34,486 nt of DNA from a virus (taxonomy: Duplodnaviria > Heunggongvirae > Uroviricota > Caudoviricetes), in the IMG/VR virus record IMGVR_UViG_2645727868_000009. One strand, written 5' to 3'. The position numbers and the translations under genes were made by a program. This document shows, one piece after another, positions 16,340 through 34,250 of the stretch. The notes beneath the pieces were generated by a model. It made no database searches and was not told where the DNA came from. It saw only the letters and a program-made list of their open reading frames with translations. Position 1 is the first letter of the stretch. Every line of letters starts with the position of its first letter.

Positions 16340-16356
16340 AGGGTGTTCAGCACCCT
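16340..16356. promoter_or_regulatory. Palindromic motif AGGGTG-TTCAG-CACCCT upstream of gene I (copy 1 of a shared element)
   Basis: Perfect 6-bp arms with 5-bp spacer; embedded in a 29-bp block (16328-16356) that recurs at 24488-24516. Confidence 0.5.
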
Positions 16357-24497: not shown

Positions 24498-24516
24498 GGG
24501 GGTGTTCAGCACCCCC
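24498..24516. promoter_or_regulatory. Palindromic motif GGGGGTG-TTCAG-CACCCCC upstream of the lysis genes (copy 2)
   Basis: Perfect 7-bp arms, same TTCAG spacer and same upstream GGGTACTG block as copy 1; located between the 95-aa gene stop and the holin start. Confidence 0.5.
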
Positions 24517-24539: not shown

Positions 24540-24827
24540 TTAAAGAGAAGCGAGTTTTAATGGTGGCTTATAACATGCCCGCGCCAGCAGGTTAGCTCTT
24601 TCCACGGCATTACGCATTTCCCGTTCTGCGTCAATCATTCTGTTTACGGCTGACAGCACTTCATCATGATTCGTTACTGATTCCGGGCTTTGGGCCTGTT
24701 TCGCCAGGTAACTGGATAAACTGCACATTTCAGCATGTCGGCGACGGGCTGCATCCCGGGCCTTGTCTGAAAATGCGGTATATTCACCGAGTACTGCATA
24801 GTCGATATCGGTGTCAGAACGCATCAT
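24540..24827 (-). CDS. Hypothetical protein
   Basis: 95-aa ORF with ATGATG start and strong RBS (AAGGAGA, 7 nt spacer); between Mor/C gene and lysis genes. Confidence 0.5.
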   Translation of the reverse strand: MMRSDTDIDYAVLGEYTAFSDKARDAARRRHAEMCSLSSYLAKQAQSPESVTNHDEVLSAVNRMIDAEREMRNAVERANLLARACYKPPLKLASL

Positions 24828-24854: not shown

Positions 24855-25322
24855 TTAATCAAAAAGCCCCACCTGGGTGGGGCTTTTCAGCGAAGTCTGT
24901 TTTTGTCGTCGGTGTATCAGTTGCCATGCGTACCGGTCTGAAATGCCGTAACGGGGACAGAGCAGTGCCAGCGCCTGCCGGTGTGAGCATCCGCCTTTTA
25001 CATGCTGCTGTAAATCAGCCATAAAACGGGTGTTACGCAGGGCACGTAACGCATGATCGCAACGGGGAATGTAAAACGGTGCGCCGCCAAGAAAACGGAT
25101 CAGTTTGTTGATTTCGTCTTCGGTCAGCACGTCATGTAACAGGGCATGGACACCGCCGGTGCGTTCGGCGTGTACGCCGGTTTTACCGCTTAACGTCACG
25201 CCACCAAAAGAACGAATCAACCGGGTCAGGGCGGGGAAGCCAATCACGCTAATCAGTTGCTGCACGGAATCGGGCAGCAGTGCCTGCGCATCGCGAAGAT
25301 CTGTTTCACTGAAGGTCTGCAT
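24855..25322 (-). CDS. Mor/C-family transcriptional activator
   Basis: 155-aa ORF, ATG start with GGAGA RBS; contains the GGxxxYIPR motif (FLGGAPFYIPR) and C-terminal helix-turn-helix-like segment characteristic of Mu Mor/C activators. Confidence 0.8.
   Translation of the reverse strand: MQTFSETDLRDAQALLPDSVQQLISVIGFPALTRLIRSFGGVTLSGKTGVHAERTGGVHALLHDVLTEDEINKLIRFLGGAPFYIPRCDHALRALRNTRFMADLQQHVKGGCSHRQALALLCPRYGISDRYAWQLIHRRQKQTSLKSPTQVGLFD
24861..24887 (-). terminator. Bidirectional terminator-like hairpin overlapping the Mor/C stop codon
   Basis: Perfect GC-rich inverted repeat GCCCCACC/GGTGGGGC flanked by AAAAA on one side and TTTT on the other; the minus-strand U-tract precedes the stop. 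Confidence 0.5.
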
Positions 25323-25351
25323 GATGGCGTCTCCGGTAGTAACTTACTGTT

Positions 25352-25357
25352 ATTATA
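25352..25357 (-). promoter_or_regulatory. Candidate -10 hexamer of a promoter for the Mor/C-family gene
   Basis: Perfect TATAAT on the minus strand 30 nt upstream of the Mor/C ATG, with a poor -35 region (CTGTAC at 17-bp spacing) and the terminator dyad just upstream. Confidence 0.4.
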
Positions 25358-25384
25358 GCCATACATGATCGCCTGTACAGACCA

Positions 25385-25409
25385 TAAAAAACCTCCGCGT
25401 TTGCGAAGG
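25385..25409 (-). terminator. Rho-independent terminator after the secreted-protein gene
   Basis: Minus-strand RNA forms a 7-bp stem with one G-U pair (CCUUCGC-AAAC-GCGGAGG) followed by UUUUUU; lies 13 nt after the stop at 25422. Confidence 0.6.
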
Positions 25410-25421
25410 TTTTTGTTCATA

Positions 25422-25760
25422 TTATTTTTTATTCTCGTTTATCAACACCAGGTATCCTCTGACATACTCCCATACTTTCTGGTTATCTGTTGGATGCACT
25501 TTTCGACAATCTATGGCTTCATTTCCATAATCGCCAATGTCAGCTTGGGCTTGTGTTAAGAGAATAACCTTCCTGAGAGCGCATCCTCTGATGGTATCCT
25601 TTGAAATATCATCCCAGCCATTCATGTATGAATAAGCCAGATTACGTTGTGCCTGATAATCGCCCTGTAATGTTTTTTTGACCAAATCTTCCTCTGAATC
25701 AGAAGCATGGGATATCCCTGTAAAACATAAAGTCAGAATAAGTAATAACAGTTTTTTCAT
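25422..25760 (-). CDS. Secreted/periplasmic hypothetical protein
   Basis: 112-aa ORF, ATG start with AAGGAGA RBS; N-terminal signal peptide (MKKLLLLILTLCFTGISHA); followed by an intrinsic terminator. Confidence 0.55.
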   Translation of the reverse strand: MKKLLLLILTLCFTGISHASDSEEDLVKKTLQGDYQAQRNLAYSYMNGWDDISKDTIRGCALRKVILLTQAQADIGDYGNEAIDCRKVHPTDNQKVWEYVRGYLVLINENKK

Positions 25761-26152
25761 TTACGTCTCCTTGAATCTTTAACCAGCGCCACCATCACTC
25801 CAAAAAGCTGTTCATCCGTCAGCCATTCGATCACATGTTGCTTATACATGTGAGATGCCAGTCCTTCTGCATACGCCCAGGAACGACCGGCATCAGCCAG
25901 CAACGCTTCAATTTTGGATAATACTGATTTTCTGCTCATTGCAACACGAGGGCGGCGACCTTTACCAGCGGGTGCCTTGCGCGGGAATCCCTGTTCGTGC
26001 ATGTATTCCCGGATGATGCGCAGTTCATCGAGATTGCAGCGTGTGGTGCTGGTTTTACCGGTCAGGCGGGCCAGCGTCTGGCGATAAAGGGCATCATCCC
26101 ACCCCAGATACGCCTGACCAGCTTTAATGGCCCCGATCATCTTTTTCAGCAT
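25757..26152 (-). CDS. gemA: GemA-like protein (Mu gp16-like)
   Basis: Start set to ATG at 26150-26152 (GAGGA 8 nt upstream); track ORF extends to 26251 via non-ATG start. Sequence YLGWDDALYRQTLARLTGKTS...LRIIREYMHEQGF recalled as GemA/DUF1018-like; location just upstream of Mor/C gene as in Mu. Confidence 0.65.
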   Translation of the reverse strand: MLKKMIGAIKAGQAYLGWDDALYRQTLARLTGKTSTTRCNLDELRIIREYMHEQGFPRKAPAGKGRRPRVAMSRKSVLSKIEALLADAGRSWAYAEGLASHMYKQHVIEWLTDEQLFGVMVALVKDSRRRK

Positions 26153-26556: not shown

Positions 26557-26967
26557 TCAGTATGTGAAATAGACAGTTGCCACGCCGTTATAGTGATCAA
26601 ACGACACGGCGTTTACCTCATAACTGGCCGGTAGCTTCGAGCCAAGAACGTATCCGGGCCACGTTTTCCATGGAATTTCTCTGCTCCCACTGTCGCCATA
26701 TACCGTACATCCCAGTGAGCCTACAGCTTCATAAGAACGCTTACCGCACGTTATGAATCCCAGATTTTGCTTACTGCTCTTAATGGTGATTGAGTGAACG
26801 CTGGCTGATGCATTAGCAGCACGCTGTGCCTGTTGGTTTGCGATATTCGCAGAGTTCGCAGCAGCTACAGCAGCCGTAGTCGCGGCGGTAGAGGCTACAA
26901 TAGCTGCTGAAGCATGCACTTGTTGGATATTCACCAACAATGCCGCGATAAAAATCATCTTCTTCAC
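26557..26967 (-). CDS. Secreted hypothetical protein
   Basis: 136-aa ORF; GTG start at 26965-26967 with AAGGAG 7 nt upstream (alternative ATG at 26958); signal peptide, Ala/Asn-rich low-complexity linker, Cys-containing C-terminal domain. Confidence 0.5.
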   Translation of the reverse strand: MKKMIFIAALLVNIQQVHASAAIVASTAATTAAVAAANSANIANQQAQRAANASASVHSITIKSSKQNLGFITCGKRSYEAVGSLGCTVYGDSGSREIPWKTWPGYVLGSKLPASYEVNAVSFDHYNGVATVYFTY

Positions 26968-27665
26968 TTGTCAGCTCCTTTGCGAATCTGTTCCGCCCAT
27001 TCTTCAAGGGATTTCTCCGCATATTCACCAGACAGGCCATCAATCGGATGCGCTTCATTAGCCAACTCTTCTTTCGCTGACAAAATCATGCGTGTAACGT
27101 CGAAAACTTCACGCAAAGACTTATTGATAAATCCGTGATTGAACGCAGCAGCAAGACGGCTTGCGGTGTAGTTAATCCCCTCGTTGCGTGCCTCCGCACG
27201 TATTTCAGCCAGGAAAGCATCGGTGGCTGGTGTTTCAGGTATCTGTCTCCTCATCCGTTCTATTGCATGATTGAACCCGAAGTCTTCCGCGAGAGATACG
27301 TCATCCATATTGTCATTGTCATCTTCAATATCCCGTGATTCTGGAATTGCAGACTTTATTCCCGCACTCTCCGCTGCCAGCGCCGCACGACAGGCCTCCA
27401 GTTCAGCAATACGCTTGTTTTGGGCTTCCCGCTCATCCAGTAGTGCCTGTACTACTTCAGGGTTGAAAGCTGCGATATAACGAGCGTTGTTCTCTGCGTT
27501 TTCCTGTCCATCAAAGCCGGTCCATTTGATAACGTCTTCACATCGTTTATCACCGGGTGTATGCACCGCATATGTACCAGTACCCGACGAAATAAATGCG
27601 ACCCATTCGCCTTGTGTTGCCTTTTCTGCCGCCTCACGCAGTGCCTGATAGTTAATTTTGCTCAC
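26964..27665 (-). CDS. Ead/Ea22-like protein
   Basis: Start set to GTG at 27663-27665 with AGGAGG exactly 6 nt upstream (in-frame ATG at 27683 also possible); acidic coiled-coil-containing protein with N-terminal YQALREAAEKATQGEWVAF segment recalled from Ea22-like proteins of enterobacterial prophages. Confidence 0.5.
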   Translation of the reverse strand: MSKINYQALREAAEKATQGEWVAFISSGTGTYAVHTPGDKRCEDVIKWTGFDGQENAENNARYIAAFNPEVVQALLDEREAQNKRIAELEACRAALAAESAGIKSAIPESRDIEDDNDNMDDVSLAEDFGFNHAIERMRRQIPETPATDAFLAEIRAEARNEGINYTASRLAAAFNHGFINKSLREVFDVTRMILSAKEELANEAHPIDGLSGEYAEKSLEEWAEQIRKGADK

Positions 27666-28026
27666 GGGTTGCCTCCTGTTCATTTCCCTTGTTCAGTTTT
27701 CGTCTGCATACAGCGCAATCATCGGGGCTTTCGAAGCTGTCTGGTTCGCGTTCACCAGAGTACATCCATCTGCGGCAGATACTGGTTACTTCATTCTCGG
27801 CAAAATAATGATATTTTTTCGACCTGGCTGGTCTGCCCCATCCAGCTGTTCTCTCGCTCACATCACGTTTTAATCCCCCCGCGCGGACCTCCTTTAGCTC
27901 CAGAAGGGCCAGCCTCAGAAGCGTCCACCACTCACTGTCTGCAACCGGCTCCATATCAAGCGCTCTGTCAGCATCAGCAATCAGTCTGGTCAGGCTCTTA
28001 TCGCTTATTCTGGTTTGCTGGCTCAC
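27652..28026 (-). CDS. Hypothetical protein
   Basis: Start set to GTG at 28024-28026 with AGGAGG 6 nt upstream (ATG at 28044 also possible); the junction is a near-identical copy of the one in front of the Ea22-like gene. Confidence 0.4.
   Translation of the reverse strand: MSQQTRISDKSLTRLIADADRALDMEPVADSEWWTLLRLALLELKEVRAGGLKRDVSERTAGWGRPARSKKYHYFAENEVTSICRRWMYSGEREPDSFESPDDCAVCRRKLNKGNEQEATREQN
27660..27685. repeat. 26-bp direct repeat at a gene junction (copy 1)
   Basis: GCTCACGGGTTGCCTCCTGTTCATTT; contains the AGGAGG RBS and GTG/ATG start region of the Ea22-like gene; one mismatch to copy 2. Confidence 0.7.
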
Positions 28027-28312
28027 TGGTTGCCTCCTGTTCATTTTTTTCATTCCGGTACACAAGAATTACGACATCTCCCCGGGTAATTACGCGTGCG
28101 GGGTCGCCCTGTTGCATATGGTCAATATCAAACGCGTCATTAAACGCATTTAGCGCCTTCGCGCGCTTGTCTTTACAACGACGTTTTTCACGCTGCTTAA
28201 AGAGCGAAGAAATCAACCACCTGAATGACATAAAAGTGATATAGCCATAACCGATAAGCGCCAGACCTGTATTCATGGCTACATCTATCGTTATCGTTTT
28301 ATCAATGACCAT
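27998..28312 (-). CDS. Hypothetical membrane protein
   Basis: 104-aa ORF, ATG start with AGGAGG 6 nt upstream; one predicted transmembrane segment near N-terminus. Confidence 0.4.
   Translation of the reverse strand: MVIDKTITIDVAMNTGLALIGYGYITFMSFRWLISSLFKQREKRRCKDKRAKALNAFNDAFDIDHMQQGDPARVITRGDVVILVYRNEKNEQEATSEPANQNKR
28021..28046. repeat. 26-bp direct repeat at a gene junction (copy 2)
   Basis: GCTCACTGGTTGCCTCCTGTTCATTT; same junction architecture in front of the 27652-28026 gene. Confidence 0.7.
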
Positions 28313-28532
28313 TGCCAGCCTCCTGTTTTGCCACTTTAAACGCCCGTAACATCGGGACCGTTTTACCGCTGATGACAGTGTTCATAACAATACCGATTCC
28401 ACTGTGATGTAACGCTCCCGGTGCAACAAACAGCGCAGCATCTACAACTCTGAAGTAACGGTGGAACTCCCAGAACCAGCAAGAAATAGTGATAGTTGCG
28501 GTGACCCCATGGTCATAAAATTCAATTTTCAT
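28302..28532 (-). CDS. Hypothetical protein
   Basis: 76-aa ORF, ATG start, weak RBS; stop overlaps next gene's RBS. Confidence 0.35.
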   Translation of the reverse strand: MKIEFYDHGVTATITISCWFWEFHRYFRVVDAALFVAPGALHHSGIGIVMNTVISGKTVPMLRAFKVAKQEAGNGH

Positions 28533-28756
28533 TTGCAGTTAAACCTTCTCTTATGACGTTCTACGGCAGCCTTCATATTGTTGTGCACGGTTCTTTTAAT
28601 AATCCGACGTCCCACACTGTCATAGAACCGCCACCGGGAAGCCCCCGGATATCCGGGGAACTCAACCACCGCGCTACCGTCATTCATCCTGTATTCGTGG
28701 CGTTCTCCGGGCGGCTGGTATATTGCTTCGGTAACACTGAGAAGTTTAAAAGCCAT
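28529..28756 (-). CDS. Hypothetical protein
   Basis: 75-aa ORF, ATG start with GGAGG upstream. Confidence 0.4.
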   Translation of the reverse strand: MAFKLLSVTEAIYQPPGERHEYRMNDGSAVVEFPGYPGASRWRFYDSVGRRIIKRTVHNNMKAAVERHKRRFNCK

Positions 28757-28758
28757 CG

Positions 28759-29469
28759 TTACACCCTCCCCAGTGCCAGCGGTCTGTTGCTCTGACCATT
28801 AACCCCCTGATGCAGTCTGGCGTTTTTCCCGGCGATAAAACCGGCTGTAGCGGCAAACTCTGCACCTCGACACGCTTTAGCTGTGCGCATATCCCCGTCG
28901 CGTAGCCCCTTAGTGCTGTGCAGGTTCTTTCTGTAAAGCTCAAGGCGGCTTTTTTCTTCCGGGGAGACGTCATACACCGCAATGACATCACGGGCACCAA
29001 AGACCCAGCCTTCGCAGAACTGGTCGCCACGGGCTACCCGCGTGGACGGACCACAACGTTTGCAGTGTTTATCCTGATATTTCTTGCGCTCTGCCATCAT
29101 CTGACGGGAAAGCACATCAAACGCGTAAGCCGCGATTTCCGGGCGGCTGTCAGAGCCATAAAAACGCACGTGACGTTTGAGTGAACCAGAAGCCCGGTAT
29201 TCGCCGGATATGTAACACTCGACACCGAAGGCTTTACAGACCAGGTCACACAGGATGTGCATATAACGCGGCGGTGTACTGGCATCACTCGGCGCACCCG
29301 CGCTGGCAGCTTCCTGAATGTCGAACAATTCAGCGTCGTTTTCGCTGATGCCATGCTGGCGCATATAAGCCTGGGCTTTTGCAATAGCGTTAGCGGCTTC
29401 TTCCGGGCTTGATGTTCCTCTGGCAAGGCGTAACAGTTTTTTGATTTTGGCAATGTATTTATCTTTCAT
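28759..29469 (-). CDS. DUF2786-like phage protein
   Basis: 236-aa ORF, ATG start; N-terminus (IAKIKKLLRLARGTSSPEEAANAIAKAQAYMRQHGI) matches the helical motif recalled for DUF2786; Cys-containing C-terminal domain; function unknown. Confidence 0.5.
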   Translation of the reverse strand: MKDKYIAKIKKLLRLARGTSSPEEAANAIAKAQAYMRQHGISENDAELFDIQEAASAGAPSDASTPPRYMHILCDLVCKAFGVECYISGEYRASGSLKRHVRFYGSDSRPEIAAYAFDVLSRQMMAERKKYQDKHCKRCGPSTRVARGDQFCEGWVFGARDVIAVYDVSPEEKSRLELYRKNLHSTKGLRDGDMRTAKACRGAEFAATAGFIAGKNARLHQGVNGQSNRPLALGRV

Positions 29470-29747
29470 GGTCGTCTGAACCTCAGCATCCTGAATTCTG
29501 AATTACGCAACTTCCGGCACGGCCTTCAGGAACGTGGGGAGTTCGTTCTGGCTGCGGCGCTGGATGAACATCTGCCGTCGATTGAGAACTGGTCGCAAGA
29601 CGATTAAAACAAACGATTGTCAGATTAATTTCGCGGGCGAATTTTTTTTGCTTAGCGATATTCATAAATAAACTTCCTCAGATTCAGGCGTAAGCCAGCC
29701 CCGGCGGGTTTACGCCTGTTTTAAATAACAATTAAAAACAAATTAAA

Positions 29748-29939
29748 TTAATGCGGTTCTTTCAGTGTTTCGACTTTTACGAAATAAGGCTCGACATTAA
29801 TTTCAACCACACAACCACATTTAAAATCTCTGGCAGGTGAAACGGTTTTCACCACACGACCACCACGCAACGCCGGATGTGCAGTGTGCATGAAGCGAGT
29901 CCCTACCGGATACTGCTTATTAAAGTTCTTCGCATTCAT
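29748..29939 (-). CDS. Hypothetical protein
   Basis: 63-aa ORF, ATG start, weak RBS; overlaps upstream gene end. Confidence 0.3.
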   Translation of the reverse strand: MNAKNFNKQYPVGTRFMHTAHPALRGGRVVKTVSPARDFKCGCVVEINVEPYFVKVETLKEPH

Positions 29940-30153
29940 GGCGTGGCTTCCATCCTTTCAGGTGAGCATTAGCACAGAACTCGGCCCGGTGTTCCGCCCA
30001 GATGCGGCGCAGGGTGCTACACGGGCTTTGTGCTGCCTTACGCCACAGCTTTTCAGCCTCGGCATAATCGCCGCGTTGTTCTGCTCTGGACGCGCCCAGC
30101 GAATACGCCGCGCAACTATTTCCGGCTCTGTACTCTTTGATATCCTGATGCAT
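29920..30153 (-). CDS. Hypothetical protein
   Basis: Start set to in-frame ATG at 30151-30153, 1 nt after the upstream gene stop; the track ORF extends to 30243, overlapping the upstream gene. Confidence 0.4.
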   Translation of the reverse strand: MHQDIKEYRAGNSCAAYSLGASRAEQRGDYAEAEKLWRKAAQSPCSTLRRIWAEHRAEFCANAHLKGWKPRHECEEL

Positions 30154-30154
30154 G

Positions 30155-30799
30155 TTAAACCCCTGCAATATCAAGCGGGATTGCGCGGTATTCAGCAGAA
30201 TCACCGACGCGCTCATACACGCGGATATAGCTTTTGCTGCCAATTACCTGGACGGCTTCACCAATCAGTTTCATGGCGTTATCCCAGCGTTCCTCCGTAA
30301 TATCGAGACGACGCAGAGCCAGAACGCGCCCGGTGTTAATGTTGCCTTCCTTGTCCGTGCTGAATGCTTCACTGATGATGGCTTTAATTTCAGGGCGCGC
30401 TCCTTCCGTCCAGTCAGCCAGACAGTCATCAATCAGTGCCTTCGCGGTCTGAATGCGTTCATCAAGCGCGATACGGTCCTGCATGGCGCGCTGAATCTTG
30501 TAACGCCCGTCAAAGCTGTAAAGTGTGATATTCCCTTTTTTACCGCCTTTCACAGCGCCGTATTTCTCCGCCGACAGGTCAATAAATGCCTGAATATCAC
30601 CAAACGCACGCAGTTTCAGTTCACGCAGTGAGGCAGAGGCAGCAATCACCATCTCCACAAGCTCACCGACCAGCTGCTCACGGTCGCGGTCAATATCTTT
30701 GATAAGACTTTCAGGCGTCATCACACCACGGGCATCAACCCAGTAGCCTTCCTGCACTTTATTTTTTGTATATTGCTTAACTTTATTTTCAGTCGTCAT
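30155..30799 (-). CDS. Conserved Mu-like early-region protein (DUF3164-like)
   Basis: 214-aa ORF, ATG start with GAGGT upstream. Family assignment is from memory only; not Mu Gam by sequence. Confidence 0.5.
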   Translation of the reverse strand: MTTENKVKQYTKNKVQEGYWVDARGVMTPESLIKDIDRDREQLVGELVEMVIAASASLRELKLRAFGDIQAFIDLSAEKYGAVKGGKKGNITLYSFDGRYKIQRAMQDRIALDERIQTAKALIDDCLADWTEGARPEIKAIISEAFSTDKEGNINTGRVLALRRLDITEERWDNAMKLIGEAVQVIGSKSYIRVYERVGDSAEYRAIPLDIAGV

Positions 30800-30828
30800 A
30801 ATTAAATTACCTCAGTGATATTTACAGA

Positions 30829-31044
30829 TTAATGTGTGTTATGTGCGCGAGGCGCAACATTTTCAGAAAAAAGATTCACGCCGTTATAGTCATTTCTGAG
30901 CGTTTCCTTGATAGCATCATGTAATCTTGTTGCCACCTGAAACTCCTTTTCGGAAGCTCCGTCCTTCGAATAACTCCCCGTGGTCTGGGTTAAAACACAG
31001 CCTTTTTCATCGGTATAGATAATTACTTCTAACTTAACCGCCAT
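30829..31044 (-). CDS. Hypothetical early protein
   Basis: 71-aa ORF, ATG start with strong RBS (AAGAGGAA). Confidence 0.45.
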   Translation of the reverse strand: MAVKLEVIIYTDEKGCVLTQTTGSYSKDGASEKEFQVATRLHDAIKETLRNDYNGVNLFSENVAPRAHNTH

Positions 31045-31056
31045 TCTGATTTCCTC

Positions 31057-31296
31057 TTATTGCCATACGACGGTGCAGCCGTCGATACAGGACGTTTTCA
31101 CCACGCGGCGCAGGCCGCTGAATGTCTGGATGATTTCCGTTACCGGCCATACAGGGCCGCCCACGGGCGGGCAGGCATAAACCACAGGTAAACGGTGATG
31201 TTGCCCAGTTACGCGACCGCCGGTGGTGTGGATGGCCACACGGGCACGGGAACGGACGGCGTTAATGGTCTGCTTGTCCATCATCTTGTTCTCCAT
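31057..31296 (-). CDS. Hypothetical early protein
   Basis: 79-aa ORF whose ATG overlaps the B gene stop (TGATG), implying translational coupling; occupies the position of kil in Mu but no sequence identity is claimed. Confidence 0.45.
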   Translation of the reverse strand: MENKMMDKQTINAVRSRARVAIHTTGGRVTGQHHRLPVVYACPPVGGPVWPVTEIIQTFSGLRRVVKTSCIDGCTVVWQ

Positions 31297-32189
31297 CAGT
31301 GAATTAACATTTCTGCGAATTTATCAATGGCCTGCACACTGACCGGTGCATCGCTGATATCACAAATCCGGTACACACCGCGCGCCAGTTTGAACAGGCG
31401 GCGGGCATTACCCAGTGAGCGTGCGTAGAGCGCCTCGCTGATTTCCGGTTCTGCTGCTTCCGGCATCAGCCCGGTAGCTATCTGGTTAAAATCTTCCTGC
31501 GACAGCGTATCGCCCAGGTTAAGCGCCAGCGCCACACGGCTGTATAACTGGGCGAACTCACCGCGACGTCCCTTGAGGTTAATCAGAAGGCGTGGCATAC
31601 CCGCCAGGACAATCCCGATACCCGCTTTGTCATGCAGACGGCGCAGAACCTCCAGTGCGCGATAGGGGAGCAGTTCAGCCTCGTCCACCATCAGCAGGCG
31701 ACCGGAATCACGCAGTTCTCGCACACATGCATCAATCAGTTCGTGGATATTGCCGCGAACTTTTACCCCCAGCTGGCGGCACAGCTCCTCAAGCAGTGTT
31801 CTGGCTGTATAGCCCGGGTCGGCTTCAATCAGGACCGCATCCCGGTTTCTGGCGGCGTATTCACGCAGAATCATTGTTTTGCCAAGACCTGCCGCGCCAT
31901 ACAGTACGCAGATTTCACATTCCAGGTGAGCATAGGCCAACACCTCCAGTCCTTTGGCAGCCATACCGGTGGCAACAAATTTCGCTTTAATACGGCGGCT
32001 GTTTTCCTTTTCCCGCTCACGGGTCACAAAGGCAGAAATGCGTTCTTCAATATCAGCCATATCGCCCTGATATTTACCCTGTAAATACTGGTTGATAACG
32101 GCGCTGCTACGACCAATAGCACGGGCGACGTGGGTTTGCGTATAGCCGCGACGGGCCATTACGTCATTTAATTGCGTAATTAAACTCAT
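31296..32189 (-). CDS. B: DNA transposition ATPase B (MuB-like)
   Basis: 297-aa ORF, ATG start with AAGGT RBS; N-terminal helix-turn-helix region, Walker A (GAAGLGKT) and Walker B (LLMVDEAE) motifs; directly downstream of transposase. Confidence 0.85.
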   Translation of the reverse strand: MSLITQLNDVMARRGYTQTHVARAIGRSSAVINQYLQGKYQGDMADIEERISAFVTREREKENSRRIKAKFVATGMAAKGLEVLAYAHLECEICVLYGAAGLGKTMILREYAARNRDAVLIEADPGYTARTLLEELCRQLGVKVRGNIHELIDACVRELRDSGRLLMVDEAELLPYRALEVLRRLHDKAGIGIVLAGMPRLLINLKGRRGEFAQLYSRVALALNLGDTLSQEDFNQIATGLMPEAAEPEISEALYARSLGNARRLFKLARGVYRICDISDAPVSVQAIDKFAEMLIH

Positions 32190-32207
32190 AATTAAATACC
32201 TTTTAAA

Positions 32208-34250
32208 TTAACGGTTGTTTGTGCCGTTTTTCTTTAAATTGCGTTCGCGTTCAGATGCGAATAAATAAAGTTCTTCTTTTTCCTTTTTCTCCAGGCGTTC
32301 CAGTCCATATCCCAGATTAAAGTCAGGCTTCTGCGTAATGGCCGGGGTAAGCTCGCGTTTAGCCTCTTCGATTTTCTGCGTGGCCCGTGCAATGCGGCCC
32401 TTGACGCGTTTCTCCAGTTTTTGTTCGATAACTGGTTTAGCGAAGGCATCAACCTTGTTACCGTTCCAGATGGCATCGCAGATATAAGAGCCATCAGCCC
32501 GCCGGACAATGACGCTGTTTGCATCATGAATATCGTAACTGACCCTGACTTCATTCCCGTGCTCTGCGGCCAGATCATATGAGTAATAAATATTGTTGAA
32601 TAACTGAATTTCCCCGCGAAATGTTTTGCGCGTCACTTCCGGCCTGAACATTTCATGCAGTTCTTCCGGCGACAGGAAATCAATTTCAACATTCTGCTCT
32701 TTTATCAGTTTCCGGCGATACGCTGCCGGGCTGTAATGCTCGCCATCCTCTTTGCGAGGAAGGCTGCTGTGTGGCCGGTTGTTATAGCGTCTGACCTCCA
32801 GCTCTATGGCTGCCATCAGTTGCTCAAAGGTAGGGATTTCATCCCTCGCCTTAACCTGCCGTTTTGTCAGCTCTTTCCCTTTGTGGGTGGCCTTAATGGC
32901 TGACTGCATAATCCGTTGCTGCATCATTACGGTTTCCTTGTCTGCATCCCTTGCGCAGTACGTTTGGAAACTCAGGGCCACGTCTTTGGGTATTTCCTTG
33001 TTAACCCTTTCAATCACCCCGCGCCCCTGCGGGTTACCTGGTATCCCCGTGTGATGTTCCACACCCAGACGGGGCAGAATCCCGGTAATATCGGCATCAA
33101 GCACCAGGTTTTTTTCGCCGCCCCCGTTATCGGAGTAATAAATCAGCGGTATCCCGTGCTGTGCCATGCCGTAACGTAACGCATCAGCAACGGCTATCAC
33201 GTTCTCCGACAGGGACAGTGACCAGCCCACAATAAAGCGTTGTCCTGCATCCATAACCAGCGTCACTTCTGGCCGGAAAATATTGCCGGTCAGGGGGTTA
33301 AACGCGGTCATTTTCATACAGTGACCATCCCCGACCCATACCGCATTAACCGGTAATGATGTCCACTCGCGCCGCACAAAGGGATTGAGCGAACGCCAGG
33401 CTGAACCTGTGGAGCGGAAACGCTCTTTAACAATCACCGGGACGCTGCTTAACACCCGTCTTACTGCGTGAACTGAAGGCAGTGCCGCCAGCATTCCCGC
33501 ATCGTTCGCGTGTTTTTCATGCCACCAGGCTGAAAACTCGCGATACGCATATTCAACGGTCGGGCGCTTCCATGAGCGATAGAACATAAAGAAATCGCTC
33601 AACCACCAGACCTGCTCCCACGGTGTTCCCTTATGATGACCGGGAGCCAGTAACGCCAGTAACTGATTGGCATCACCGCGCGCCATCACCCAGCTGGAGT
33701 ACCAACTATCCAGGCTGCCTGTGCTGACACCGGTTCGCTTTCCCTGACGTGCATTTGCAGTATTAGCTGCTTCGATAATGCGGTCAGGTAACGCCCCCAT
33801 GCGCACACCATCAACGATGTGCTTTAACGCGGCCTTCCTAGTCATTCCGGCGTATTCACGCAGTTTATGCACTTCAGTAGCCAGCAATATCCGCGCATCA
33901 GCGATGGCCTTTTGCTTGTCAGTCAGTGCCTGGACTTCGCGTAATGCCAGTTCCGGGCATTTGACCATCACCTCCAGTTCATCGCGAACGGCGACGTTTT
34001 TAACTGCCTTCTGCTCAACCTCGGCGGGCAGTTGCGTATCTTCCAGGACCTGATGGGTCAGGCGCTTACGTAAAACTTTCTGCGCTTCAGCGGGCAGGCA
34101 GTCGATGTGATACTCGAATGCTTTGGTGCCTTCACGCTTGCGCTTCCATTCCGGGTGCGTCTCTGTGATCCGATTGAGCGTCCAGCGCACCCCCTGAACT
34201 GTACCGGGCAAACCAGGAAGACCGGCCAGCTCATTGGCTGAATAAAACAT
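32208..34250 (-). CDS. A: Transposase A (MuA-like DDE transposase)
   Basis: 680-aa ORF, ATG start overlapping ner stop (TAATG); N-terminus ANELAGLPGLPGT parallels the Mu A N-terminal DNA-binding region; size and position match MuA. Confidence 0.9.
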   Translation of the reverse strand: MFYSANELAGLPGLPGTVQGVRWTLNRITETHPEWKRKREGTKAFEYHIDCLPAEAQKVLRKRLTHQVLEDTQLPAEVEQKAVKNVAVRDELEVMVKCPELALREVQALTDKQKAIADARILLATEVHKLREYAGMTRKAALKHIVDGVRMGALPDRIIEAANTANARQGKRTGVSTGSLDSWYSSWVMARGDANQLLALLAPGHHKGTPWEQVWWLSDFFMFYRSWKRPTVEYAYREFSAWWHEKHANDAGMLAALPSVHAVRRVLSSVPVIVKERFRSTGSAWRSLNPFVRREWTSLPVNAVWVGDGHCMKMTAFNPLTGNIFRPEVTLVMDAGQRFIVGWSLSLSENVIAVADALRYGMAQHGIPLIYYSDNGGGEKNLVLDADITGILPRLGVEHHTGIPGNPQGRGVIERVNKEIPKDVALSFQTYCARDADKETVMMQQRIMQSAIKATHKGKELTKRQVKARDEIPTFEQLMAAIELEVRRYNNRPHSSLPRKEDGEHYSPAAYRRKLIKEQNVEIDFLSPEELHEMFRPEVTRKTFRGEIQLFNNIYYSYDLAAEHGNEVRVSYDIHDANSVIVRRADGSYICDAIWNGNKVDAFAKPVIEQKLEKRVKGRIARATQKIEEAKRELTPAITQKPDFNLGYGLERLEKKEKEELYLFASERERNLKKNGTNNR

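What the first reader, a model, noticed from the sequence alone, without database searches (positions are those of the whole stretch)
25323..25424. Terminator followed immediately by an activator-type promoter in front of the Mor/C-family gene
A terminator hairpin with a U-tract (25385-25409) ends the gemA/secreted-protein transcript. Twenty-seven nt further on there is a perfect TATAAT (25352-25357) with a poor -35, followed by a GGAGA RBS and the Mor/C ATG. A good -10 with a weak -35 next to a dyad is typical of an activator-dependent promoter such as the Mu middle promoter. The arrangement suggests the activator gene is insulated from early read-through and transcribed separately.
Basis: partly seen in the sequence, partly recalled or inferred. 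Interest (0 to 1): 0.5.

Follow-up and report, generated by a model that had tools for sequence, protein, structure and literature searches.

The report
Early-operon terminator plus Mor-gene promoter
In a Mu-like prophage of E. coli, a transcription stop signal ends the early genes, and a conserved promoter just behind it drives the phage's only late-gene activator as a separate unit; this is a variant of a layout already known from phage Mu, not a new kind of element.

Summary
On the - strand, an 8-bp G+C-rich hairpin (25410..25391) with a run of six T follows the stop codon of the last early gene. TGTACA-16 bp-TATAAT (25379..25352), GGAGA and the ATG of the only Mor-family gene come next. 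Relatives keep the hairpin as a structure: at least five unrelated stem sequences, 100% paired, 4 of 8 pairs compensatory. It is present whatever gene lies upstream, or none. Both promoter hexamers and their 16-bp spacing are invariant down to 54% Mor identity (P about 4e-6). These two hairpins, one on each side of the Mor gene, are the only canonical intrinsic terminators on the coding strand of the 34.5-kb window.

The "Mu-Pm-like, activator site in the dyad" reading is not supported. The dyad varies in sequence beside identical promoters and Mor proteins. It is centred near -55.5, not -43.5. The conserved bases lie inside the core promoter: CTGTACA at -35..-29 and GATCA at -25..-21. That GATC sits in a genome depleted 3.6-fold of GATC. 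What controls the promoter is unknown.

Mu itself has terminator/promoter junctions at t9.2/Pm and tC/Plys, so this is a new variant of a known layout. Interest is moderate to low.

The parts
25422..25760 (-). Last gene of the early transcript in this variant: a 112-aa ORF with an N-terminal signal-peptide-like sequence. It is cargo that is absent or replaced in relatives. Its ATG overlaps the gemA stop codon.
   Evidence: phrog_5882, unknown function. Variants with no cargo or other cargo.
25391..25410 (-). Terminator stem-loop ACCTTCGC-AAAC-GCGGAGGT: 8 pairs including one U.G. An upstream A run can extend it to 12 pairs.
   Evidence: -15.8 kcal/mol, z -5.2. Covariation: 100% of cells paired, 4 of 8 pairs changed on both sides, 38-59% paired when the partner is slid.
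25386..25391 (-). Run of six T (the U tract) directly after, and sharing one base with, the stem. It falls at about -46..-41 of the promoter.
   Evidence: Present in all 23 distinct class-I sequences.
25373..25380 (-). CTGTACAG, containing the -35-position hexamer TGTACA (25379..25374). CTGTACA is invariant in all lineages while its flanks vary.
25366..25370 (-). GATCA (a Dam site, GATC) in the promoter spacer at about -25..-21. It is invariant in all lineages while neighbouring spacer bases vary.
   Evidence: GATC is 3.6-fold depleted in the window. This is one of only 4 intergenic GATC in the prophage.
25352..25357 (-). -10 hexamer TATAAT, 16 bp downstream of TGTACA. The predicted start is near A25345, giving a 5' UTR of about 23 nt.
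   Evidence: The start site is inferred from spacing only.
25330..25334 (-). Shine-Dalgarno GGAGA, 7 nt before the ATG at 25322.
   Evidence: Conserved as GGAG or GGGAG in relatives.
24855..25322 (-). The only Mor/C-family gene of the prophage (155 aa).
   Evidence: Equally distant from Mu Mor and Mu C.
24860..24884 (-). Second intrinsic-terminator-type hairpin, AGCCCCAC-CCAG-GTGGGGCT plus TTTTT. It overlaps the last codons and the stop of the Mor gene, so the gene is bracketed by terminators.
   Evidence: -20.6 kcal/mol, z -5.3. Kept in L044, L049 and L020.

Best explanation
The window is a Mu-like transposable prophage of E. coli with a single Mor/C-family activator.

Proposed mechanism:
1. 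Early transcription (ner, A, B, ... gemA, plus an optional cargo gene) stops at a Rho-independent terminator at 25410..25386.
2. The activator gene is transcribed separately from a sigma-70-type promoter placed 9-13 nt after the T tract: TGTACA-16 bp-TATAAT, with a start near 25345.
3. That transcript ends largely at a second terminator that overlaps the gene's stop codon.
4. The activator then turns on late operons.

Shown here: the sequence elements, their conservation, and the structural (not sequence) conservation of the hairpin.

Inferred:
- That the elements actually terminate and initiate transcription.
- That the promoter is controlled through the invariant non-consensus bases inside the core promoter (CTGTACA at -35..-29, GATCA at -25..-21), not through the hairpin dyad. 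The controlling agent could be a repressor or activator bound there, or Dam methylation.
- That the terminator's T tract may also serve as an A+T-rich upstream (UP-like) element.
For: Terminator:
- Stable hairpin plus T6.
- In 23 distinct related sequences the stem has at least five unrelated sequences with dG from -11 to -20 kcal/mol, always followed by a T tract.
- 100% of cells are paired and 4 of 8 pairs are compensatory.
- It is present whether gemA, the 112-aa ORF, a 159-aa ORF, 174/175-aa ORFs or other genes lie upstream.
- It is the first terminator-like hairpin on the coding strand downstream of the early genes held in the window. It and the hairpin after the Mor gene are the only two canonical ones on that strand in 34.5 kb.

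Promoter:
- TGTACA, the 16-bp spacing and TATAAT are invariant in E. coli, Salmonella (66% Mor identity) and Edwardsiella (54%) lineages. Only 11 of the 42 other columns are invariant. P = 3.9e-6.
- The motif CTGTACA-N3-GATCA-N8-TATAAT has 20 exact hits in 2.9 million viral contigs. 18 are on contigs already retrieved as Mor loci. The two new ones were read and both lie just upstream of a Mor-family ORF.
- A good RBS and the ATG follow.

Context:
- Sister lineages instead overlap the gemA stop with the mor start and have neither element. The pair therefore appears and disappears as one module.
- Phage Mu has the same kind of junction at t9.2/Pm and tC/Plys, as annotated in GenBank AF083977.
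Against: - There are no transcript data.
- In a position-weighted model the -35 contributes about 1 bit, and the site ranks only 17th of 68,900 in the window. Its unaided activity could be low.
- An unregulated promoter for an activator of lysis genes should harm a lysogen, so a control must exist. I could not identify it: there is no copy of the motif in the repressor/ner operator region, and no early protein specific to phages with this promoter.
- The 95-aa ORF at 24827..24540 starts 27 nt after the second terminator with no promoter of its own. At least that terminator must therefore be leaky, and the first one may be too.
Confidence: 0.65

Rival explanations
1. Mu-Pm-type promoter. The terminator dyad doubles as the binding site of a phage activator, as the t9.2 hairpin does for Mor in Mu, and that activator recruits RNA polymerase to a promoter with only a -10.
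For: - In Mu the predicted terminator 9179..9200 lies inside the middle promoter 9163..9233.
- The -35 here is weak in information terms.
- In the Xenorhabdus, Photorhabdus and Morganella relatives, a late-type motif (CTGAACACC) is embedded in the hairpin in front of mor. Double use of a hairpin therefore does occur in this phage group.
Against: - Unrelated stems (ACCTCCGC.., AGCCCCTGC.., AGCCCCGCC.., ACCCTCGCA..) sit beside identical promoters and near-identical Mor proteins.
- The dyad centre is near -55.5, not -43.5 (PMC4287176).
- The -51..-36 stretch is T tract plus a variable linker.
- The late-type motif GTGCTGAACACCC of this phage is absent from the intergenic region.
- The conserved bases lie at -35..-21 instead.
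Confidence: 0.07
2. Replication- or Dam-coupled promoter, a specific version of the best explanation. Full methylation of the conserved GATC at -25..-22 keeps the promoter low in the lysogen. Hemimethylated or unmethylated copies made by replicative transposition fire, so the activator appears only after phage replication.
For: - GATCA is invariant in five lineages while 9 of the 16 spacer positions vary.
- GATC is 3.6-fold depleted in the window: 41 against 147 expected. There is none between 26595 and 32573.
- In the Salmonella-type relative L051, 8.1 kb of early region has no GATC, yet the promoter copy is kept.
- The prophage's only four intergenic GATC lie in the left end (two), in the repressor/ner control region and in this promoter.
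- Mu middle transcription is known to need DNA replication as well as Mor (PMC2582627).
Against: - There is no functional test.
- GATCA could equally be part of a protein-binding site.
- A GATC in the spacer is not the usual position for direct methylation effects on sigma-70 promoters. From my own recollection, the known cases overlap the -10 or -35.
- Mu's own Pm has no GATC.
Confidence: 0.15
3. The activator is made mainly by read-through of a leaky terminator. The conserved CTGTACA..GATCA..TATAAT block is not a promoter but another cis element, for example a repressor or pause site, an RNA-processing site, or a 5'-UTR signal.
For: - Sister lineages express mor within the early operon, with overlapping gemA and mor.
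- The terminator after the Mor gene must itself be read through to express the 95-aa ORF.
- The promoter's weighted score is unexceptional.
Against: - The invariant columns coincide exactly with two hexamers at promoter spacing, one of them a perfect TATAAT, which is otherwise almost absent from the window.
- The element is found only together with a terminator that would otherwise cut off the gene.
- No Rfam family matches beyond sub-threshold hits on the terminator hairpins.
Confidence: 0.1
4. The hairpin is simply the terminator of an inserted moron (the secreted-protein cargo gene), not part of the phage's regulatory design.
For: The space between gemA and the hairpin is a cargo hot spot with at least five different occupants.
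Against: - Variants with no cargo have a hairpin directly after gemA (L001 and others; Edwardsiella L028).
- The cargo ATG overlaps the gemA stop and has no promoter of its own.
Confidence: 0.03

Closest known systems
Phage Mu t9.2 terminator / middle promoter Pm junction (between mor and the C operon)
   Same: An intrinsic terminator ending the early operon is followed within a few tens of nt by the promoter of the next regulatory tier. That promoter has a -10 hexamer and no good -35. It lies downstream of gemA in a transposable phage (PMC4287176).
   Different: - In Mu the junction lies after mor and drives C. Here it lies before the only Mor/C-family gene.
- In Mu the hairpin is the Mor dyad, centred at -43.5, and no -35 can be identified.
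- Here the hairpin is about 12 bp further upstream and varies in sequence, and a conserved hexamer occupies the -35 position.
Phage Mu C-gene terminator / late promoter Plys junction
   Same: A terminator overlaps the stop codon of the activator gene and is followed by an activator-dependent late promoter for lysis genes. The window has the same arrangement at 24884..24860, followed after one small ORF by a late-type motif at 24512 upstream of the holin.
   Different: A 95-aa ORF is interposed. The motif (GTGCTGAACACCC) is unrelated in sequence to Mu C sites.
One-activator Mu-like phages (SuMu, Mannheimia 3927AP2 and phiMhaMu2; Pseudomonas D3112/B3 group)
   Same: There is a single Mor-family 'late transcriptional activator' directly upstream of the lysis genes and no C gene (PMC4553209).
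   Different: In many of these (VW-6B, the Klebsiella phage, several enterobacterial prophages) mor overlaps gemA and belongs to the early operon. The terminator-plus-promoter insulation seen here is restricted to an E. coli, Salmonella and Edwardsiella clade.
Dam-sensitive promoters of transposable elements (IS10 pIN, IS50), recalled from general knowledge and not tested here
   Same: A conserved GATC lies inside the core promoter of a regulatory gene of a transposing element whose DNA becomes hemimethylated on replication.
   Different: In those cases the GATC overlaps the -10 or -35 hexamer. Here it lies in the spacer. No methylation effect has been shown.

Membership tests
Rho-independent (intrinsic) terminator | G+C-rich stem-loop immediately followed by a U tract, on the coding strand downstream of a stop codon | tested here: met
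   8-bp stem with 5 G-C pairs, 4-nt loop and T6, 11 nt after the stop codon. dG -15.8 kcal/mol, z -5.2.
Rho-independent (intrinsic) terminator | Structure maintained in evolution independently of sequence | tested here: met
   At least five unrelated stems. 100% of cells paired, 4 of 8 pairs with changes on both sides, 38-59% paired when slid.
Rho-independent (intrinsic) terminator | Transcripts actually end in the U tract | not testable with these tools
   Needs Term-seq, 3'-RACE or in-vitro termination.
Sigma-70 promoter | -10 hexamer close to TATAAT | tested here: met
   Perfect TATAAT at 25357..25352, one of only two in the window. Invariant in all lineages.
Sigma-70 promoter | -35 hexamer close to TTGACA at 16-18 bp | tested here: inconclusive
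   TGTACA at 16 bp is a 4/6 match but lacks T2 and G3 and scores about 1 of 8.4 bits. It is nevertheless strictly conserved.
Sigma-70 promoter | A transcription start 6-8 nt downstream of the -10 | not testable with these tools
   Predicted near A25345 from spacing only.
Mu Pm / late-promoter type (Mor/C-dependent) | No recognisable -35 (1-2 matches to the consensus at any spacing) | tested here: not met
   A 4/6 hexamer at 16 bp, invariant across lineages. Criterion taken from PMC4287176.
Mu Pm / late-promoter type (Mor/C-dependent) | About 16-bp dyad-symmetry activator site centred at -43.5 | tested here: not met
   The only dyad is the terminator stem, centred near -55.5. Bases -51..-36 are T tract plus a variable linker. 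Criterion taken from PMC4287176 and PMC2582627.
Mu Pm / late-promoter type (Mor/C-dependent) | Activator site conserved in sequence with its activator | tested here: not met
   Unrelated stems lie beside identical promoters and 95-100% identical Mor proteins.
Mu Pm / late-promoter type (Mor/C-dependent) | Transcription absolutely dependent on the activator protein | not testable with these tools
   Needs reporter or in-vitro assays.
This phage's own late-type promoter (GTGCTGAACACCC motif) | Presence of the motif upstream of the gene | tested here: not met
   The motif is at 24512, 16353 and 4437 on the - strand, not in 25421..25323. Only a 6-of-9 resemblance (ATGAACAAA) lies at 25420..25412.
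Dam-methylation-sensitive promoter | GATC within the core promoter, conserved | tested here: met
   GATC at 25370..25367 (-25..-22), invariant in five lineages in a GATC-depleted genome.
Dam-methylation-sensitive promoter | Activity differs between methylated, hemimethylated and unmethylated DNA | not testable with these tools
   Needs a dam+/dam- reporter comparison or in-vitro transcription.

The most novel reading that the evidence does not exclude
The only late activator of this clade of one-activator Mu-like phages is switched on by phage replication itself. A GATC is conserved in the promoter spacer of a genome that has otherwise purged GATC. The prophage's other three intergenic GATC lie at the left end and in the early control region. 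On this reading, the promoter is silent when fully Dam-methylated in the lysogen and active on the hemimethylated or unmethylated copies made by replicative transposition. That would be a purely cis-acting explanation of the replication dependence of the early-to-late switch known from Mu.
Probability: 0.15. Interest if true: 0.6.

Novelty: new variant of a known kind. Interest (0 to 1): 0.33.

Why it matters
The finding shows that closely related Mu-like prophages wire their single late activator in three different ways:
- inside the early operon;
- behind a terminator with a sigma-70-type promoter, as in this window;
- behind a terminator that carries a late-type motif.

This gives a natural comparative system for asking how the early-to-late switch is timed when there is no Mor-to-C cascade.

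It also marks the terminator's T tract as a precise mosaic joint. Upstream of it, cargo genes are exchanged, each arriving with its own hairpin.

For annotation, it gives a specific and searchable signature of the activator's promoter: CTGTACA-N3-GATCA-N8-TATAAT. It does not reveal a new kind of regulatory element.

Tried and rejected
1. The packaged terminator scan missed both hairpins that flank the Mor gene, so I wrote two scans of my own.
2. The 55-aa ORF at 25420..25253, which starts inside the intergenic region, is rejected. Its ATG lies in the cargo-specific part and is absent from variants with other hairpins.
3. Rfam at a permissive threshold gave only sub-threshold hits to the terminator portions of leader and sRNA models.
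4. The phage repressor acting on the CTGTACAG palindrome: that 8-mer has no other exact copy in the prophage or its repressor/ner control region.
5. Search for an early protein specific to phages with this promoter: Ner, A, B, DUF3164, the ANR-family regulator, DUF2786 and GemA are shared with relatives that lack the promoter, so no candidate emerged.
6. Assigning the activator to Mor or to C: it is equally distant from both, about 26 bits each.
7. By eye, TGTAC-N6-TCA is a CRP-like site with 6 of 10 core matches, centred near -26.5. This is neither a convincing match nor an activating position, so I dropped it.
8. A 'GAAC' resemblance between some hairpin 5' arms and the late-type motif is absent from the commonest E. 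coli stem type, so I did not pursue it.
9. The paper behind Mu's annotated 'semi-early promoter' upstream of gemA (PMID 9454718) is not held in the library.
10. No close relative exists in the deposited-phage collection at the DNA level. The best was 68% identity over gemA only.

Full report
**What the window is.** All genes around the finding lie on the - strand. The order is:
- gemA, 26152..25757 as annotated in the identical RefSeq record (PF06252);
- a 112-aa ORF with a signal-peptide-like N-terminus, 25760..25422;
- a 99-nt intergenic region;
- a 155-aa Mor-family ORF, 25322..24855 (PF08765; phrog_836 'late transcriptional activator');
- a 95-aa ORF;
- two holins and a GH108 endolysin.

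The DNA is 100% identical to prophages in several complete E. coli genomes. Related copies occur in 58 of 5,426 genomes. The annotated copy is a Mu-like transposable prophage with repressor, ner, MuA, MuB, GemA, a single Mor-family gene, then lysis, head and tail genes. [quoted passage not shown] The activator here is equally distant from Mu Mor and Mu C.

**The observation.** It is correct to within 1-2 nt.
- The hairpin ACCTTCGC-AAAC-GCGGAGGT (25410..25391) is followed by a run of six T, counting the last stem base. It folds at -15.8 kcal/mol, z = -5.2.
- TATAAT is at 25357..25352 and is one of only two copies on both strands of the window, against 7.3 expected.
- The consensus scan pairs it with TGTACA at 16 bp, a 10/12 match.
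- GGAGA (25334..25330) and the ATG (25322) follow.
- A position-weighted score shows that TGTACA contributes only about 1 of 8.4 bits. The site ranks 17th of 68,900 in the window.

**Comparative evidence for the terminator.** I collected the region from E. coli genomes, IMG/VR, GTDB genomes, metagenomes and Logan assemblies. This gave 23 distinct sequences of the same architecture.
- From the T tract to the ATG the E. coli copies are nearly identical, but the hairpin is not. Stems ACCTCCGC.., AGCCCCTGC.., GCCCCTGC-ATAC.., AGCCCCGCC.. (Salmonella), AGCCCTGC.. and ACCCTCGCA.. (Edwardsiella) occupy the same place. Their dG runs from -11 to -20 kcal/mol, and each is followed by a T tract.
- On a 12-sequence alignment, every cell of the 8-pair helix is paired and 4 pairs change on both sides. 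Sliding the partner drops pairing to 38-59%.
- The hairpin is there whether the upstream gene is gemA itself, the 112-aa ORF, a 159-aa ORF, 174/175-aa ORFs or others. It therefore belongs to the phage backbone, not to a moron.
- The sharp change from variable to identical sequence at the T tract marks a mosaic joint.
- My two terminator scans find only two canonical hairpin-plus-T-tract sites on the coding strand of the 34.5-kb window: this one and 24884..24860. The second overlaps the stop codon of the Mor gene. No terminator-like hairpin lies on that strand between the window's upstream end (34486) and 25410.

**Comparative evidence for the promoter.**
- I compared five independent lineages: the window, an 81% relative, a 92% relative, Salmonella at 66% and Edwardsiella at 54% Mor identity. 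All 12 hexamer positions and the 16-bp spacing are invariant, while only 11 of the other 42 columns are (P = 3.9e-6).
- Also invariant are the C before TGTACA, GATCA at spacer positions 4-8 (about -25..-21) and TG at -16/-15.
- The motif CTGTACA-N3-GATCA-N8-TATAAT has 20 exact hits in 2.9 million viral contigs. 18 are on contigs already retrieved as Mor loci. The two new ones lie directly upstream of a Mor-family ORF.

**Three architectures among relatives.** In the notebook these are classes I, II and III.
- Class I is the window type: terminator plus sigma-70-type promoter.
- In class II the gemA stop overlaps the mor start, and there is neither a terminator nor a promoter. Examples are Trabulsiella, Buttiauxella, Intestinirhabdus, Serratia, Klebsiella phages and Pseudomonas phage VW-6B.
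- In class III (Xenorhabdus, Photorhabdus, Morganella) a 90-nt intergenic region carries CCACTGAACCCCTTCAAC. It also carries a second CTGAACACC embedded in a terminator-like hairpin 43 nt before the ATG.

Terminator and promoter thus come and go together, as expected if the promoter exists to express a gene that the terminator cuts off.

**Is it an activator-type promoter like Mu Pm?**
- In Mu the predicted t9.2 hairpin (9179..9200) lies inside Pm (9163..9233), and the C-gene terminator abuts Plys. The general layout is therefore known.
- Mor and C bind a 16-bp dyad centred at -43.5, and Pm has only 1-2 matches to a -35 (PMC4287176, PMC2582627).
- Here the dyad is centred near -55.5, taking +1 as 25345. 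It is exchangeable in sequence beside identical promoters and 95-100% identical activators. The -51..-36 stretch is T tract plus a variable linker. The -35 position holds a conserved hexamer. The hairpin is therefore a terminator, not a sequence-specific activator site.
- The phage's own probable activator motif, GTGCTGAACACCC, lies upstream of the holin (24512), 47-48 nt before the protease/scaffold ATG (16353) and 47 nt before the ATG at 4384. A 25-nt version occurs twice against 0.01 expected. It is absent from the Mor promoter, so auto-activation is unlikely in this clade. The class-III relatives may use it.

**What controls the promoter.** This is unresolved.
- A promoter for an activator of lysis genes cannot be freely active in a lysogen.
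- The strictly conserved but non-consensus CTGTACA and GATCA suggest recognition by something besides sigma-70.
- I found no second copy of the motif in the repressor/ner region and no early protein specific to class-I phages.
- The GATC stands out. GATC is 3.6-fold depleted in the window (41 against 147 expected), and there is none in 6 kb of early region. The Salmonella-type relative has none in 8.1 kb of early region yet keeps the promoter copy. The prophage's four intergenic GATC lie at the left end (two), in the early control region and in this promoter.
- Mu middle transcription needs replication as well as Mor (PMC2582627), and MuC works through the beta-clamp (PMC12867686). A replication- or Dam-coupled promoter is therefore an attractive but untested reading. 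I rate it at about 0.15.

**Verdict.** The terminator and the separate promoter are well supported by comparative evidence. The 'insulated, separately transcribed activator gene' reading is the best explanation, at about 0.65. The specific analogy to the Mu middle promoter, with the dyad as activator site, fails three defining tests. The arrangement is a new variant of a known phage layout and of moderate to low general interest. Transcript-end mapping and a handful of reporter mutants would settle it.

Noticed in passing
window 24512..24500, 16353..16341, 4437..4425 (- strand); also L049, L020, L044 downstream of mor; L031, L036, L091-L108 upstream of mor: The conserved motif GTGCTGAACACCC is probably the binding site of the Mor-family activator. 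It lies upstream of the holin and 47-48 nt before two late-gene ATGs. The core CTGAAC(A/C)CC recurs in the lysis-promoter region of relatives. In the Xenorhabdus, Photorhabdus and Morganella relatives it lies in front of mor itself, embedded in a terminator-like hairpin. The geometry relative to a -10 could not be resolved.
   Followed up: partly
window 24884..24855 (- strand): The C-terminus of the activator, QVGLFD (QxGLF conserved in 15 of 16 aligned homologues), resembles the beta-clamp-binding motif reported for the Mor/MuC family (PMC12867686). The same codons form the stem and T tract of the terminator after the gene.
   Followed up: partly
whole window; L051, L055: GATC is strongly under-represented: 41 against 147 expected, and none in 26595..32573. 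GATC is also under-represented in L051 (23 observed, 56 expected) and L055 (29, 44). Only four GATC in the prophage are intergenic: two in the left end, one in the repressor/ner control region and one in the Mor promoter.
   Followed up: partly
window 25421..25760 and the equivalent position in L001, L002, L007, L021, L044, L049, L051: The slot between gemA and the terminator is a cargo hot spot. It can be empty or hold at least five unrelated small ORFs of 112, 159 or 174/175 aa, among others. Each variant has its own hairpin sequence, and identity resumes exactly at the T tract.
   Followed up: partly
window 24827..24540 (- strand): The conserved 95-aa ORF (phrog_7152, unknown function) starts 27 nt after the Mor-gene terminator and has no promoter of its own. 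This implies read-through of that terminator.
   Followed up: no
window 29685..29718 (+ strand): A very stable hairpin (-22 kcal/mol) has a T tract only on the + strand, antisense to the early genes. It lies in an A+T-rich early intergenic region and may terminate antisense transcription.
   Followed up: no
L003 9348..10700 (outside the window); one search hits H21, H22: In the identical E. coli copy, the Mu-like prophage's left end abuts a truncated major-capsid gene of another prophage, so it inserted into a resident prophage. Two other E. coli copies lie on plasmid records of about 249 kb.
   Followed up: no
window 25445..25413 (- strand): A second promoter-like match, TTGATA-15-TAATAT, lies at the 3' end of the cargo ORF just upstream of the hairpin. 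It is cargo-specific and would be terminated at once, so it is probably a chance match.
   Followed up: no
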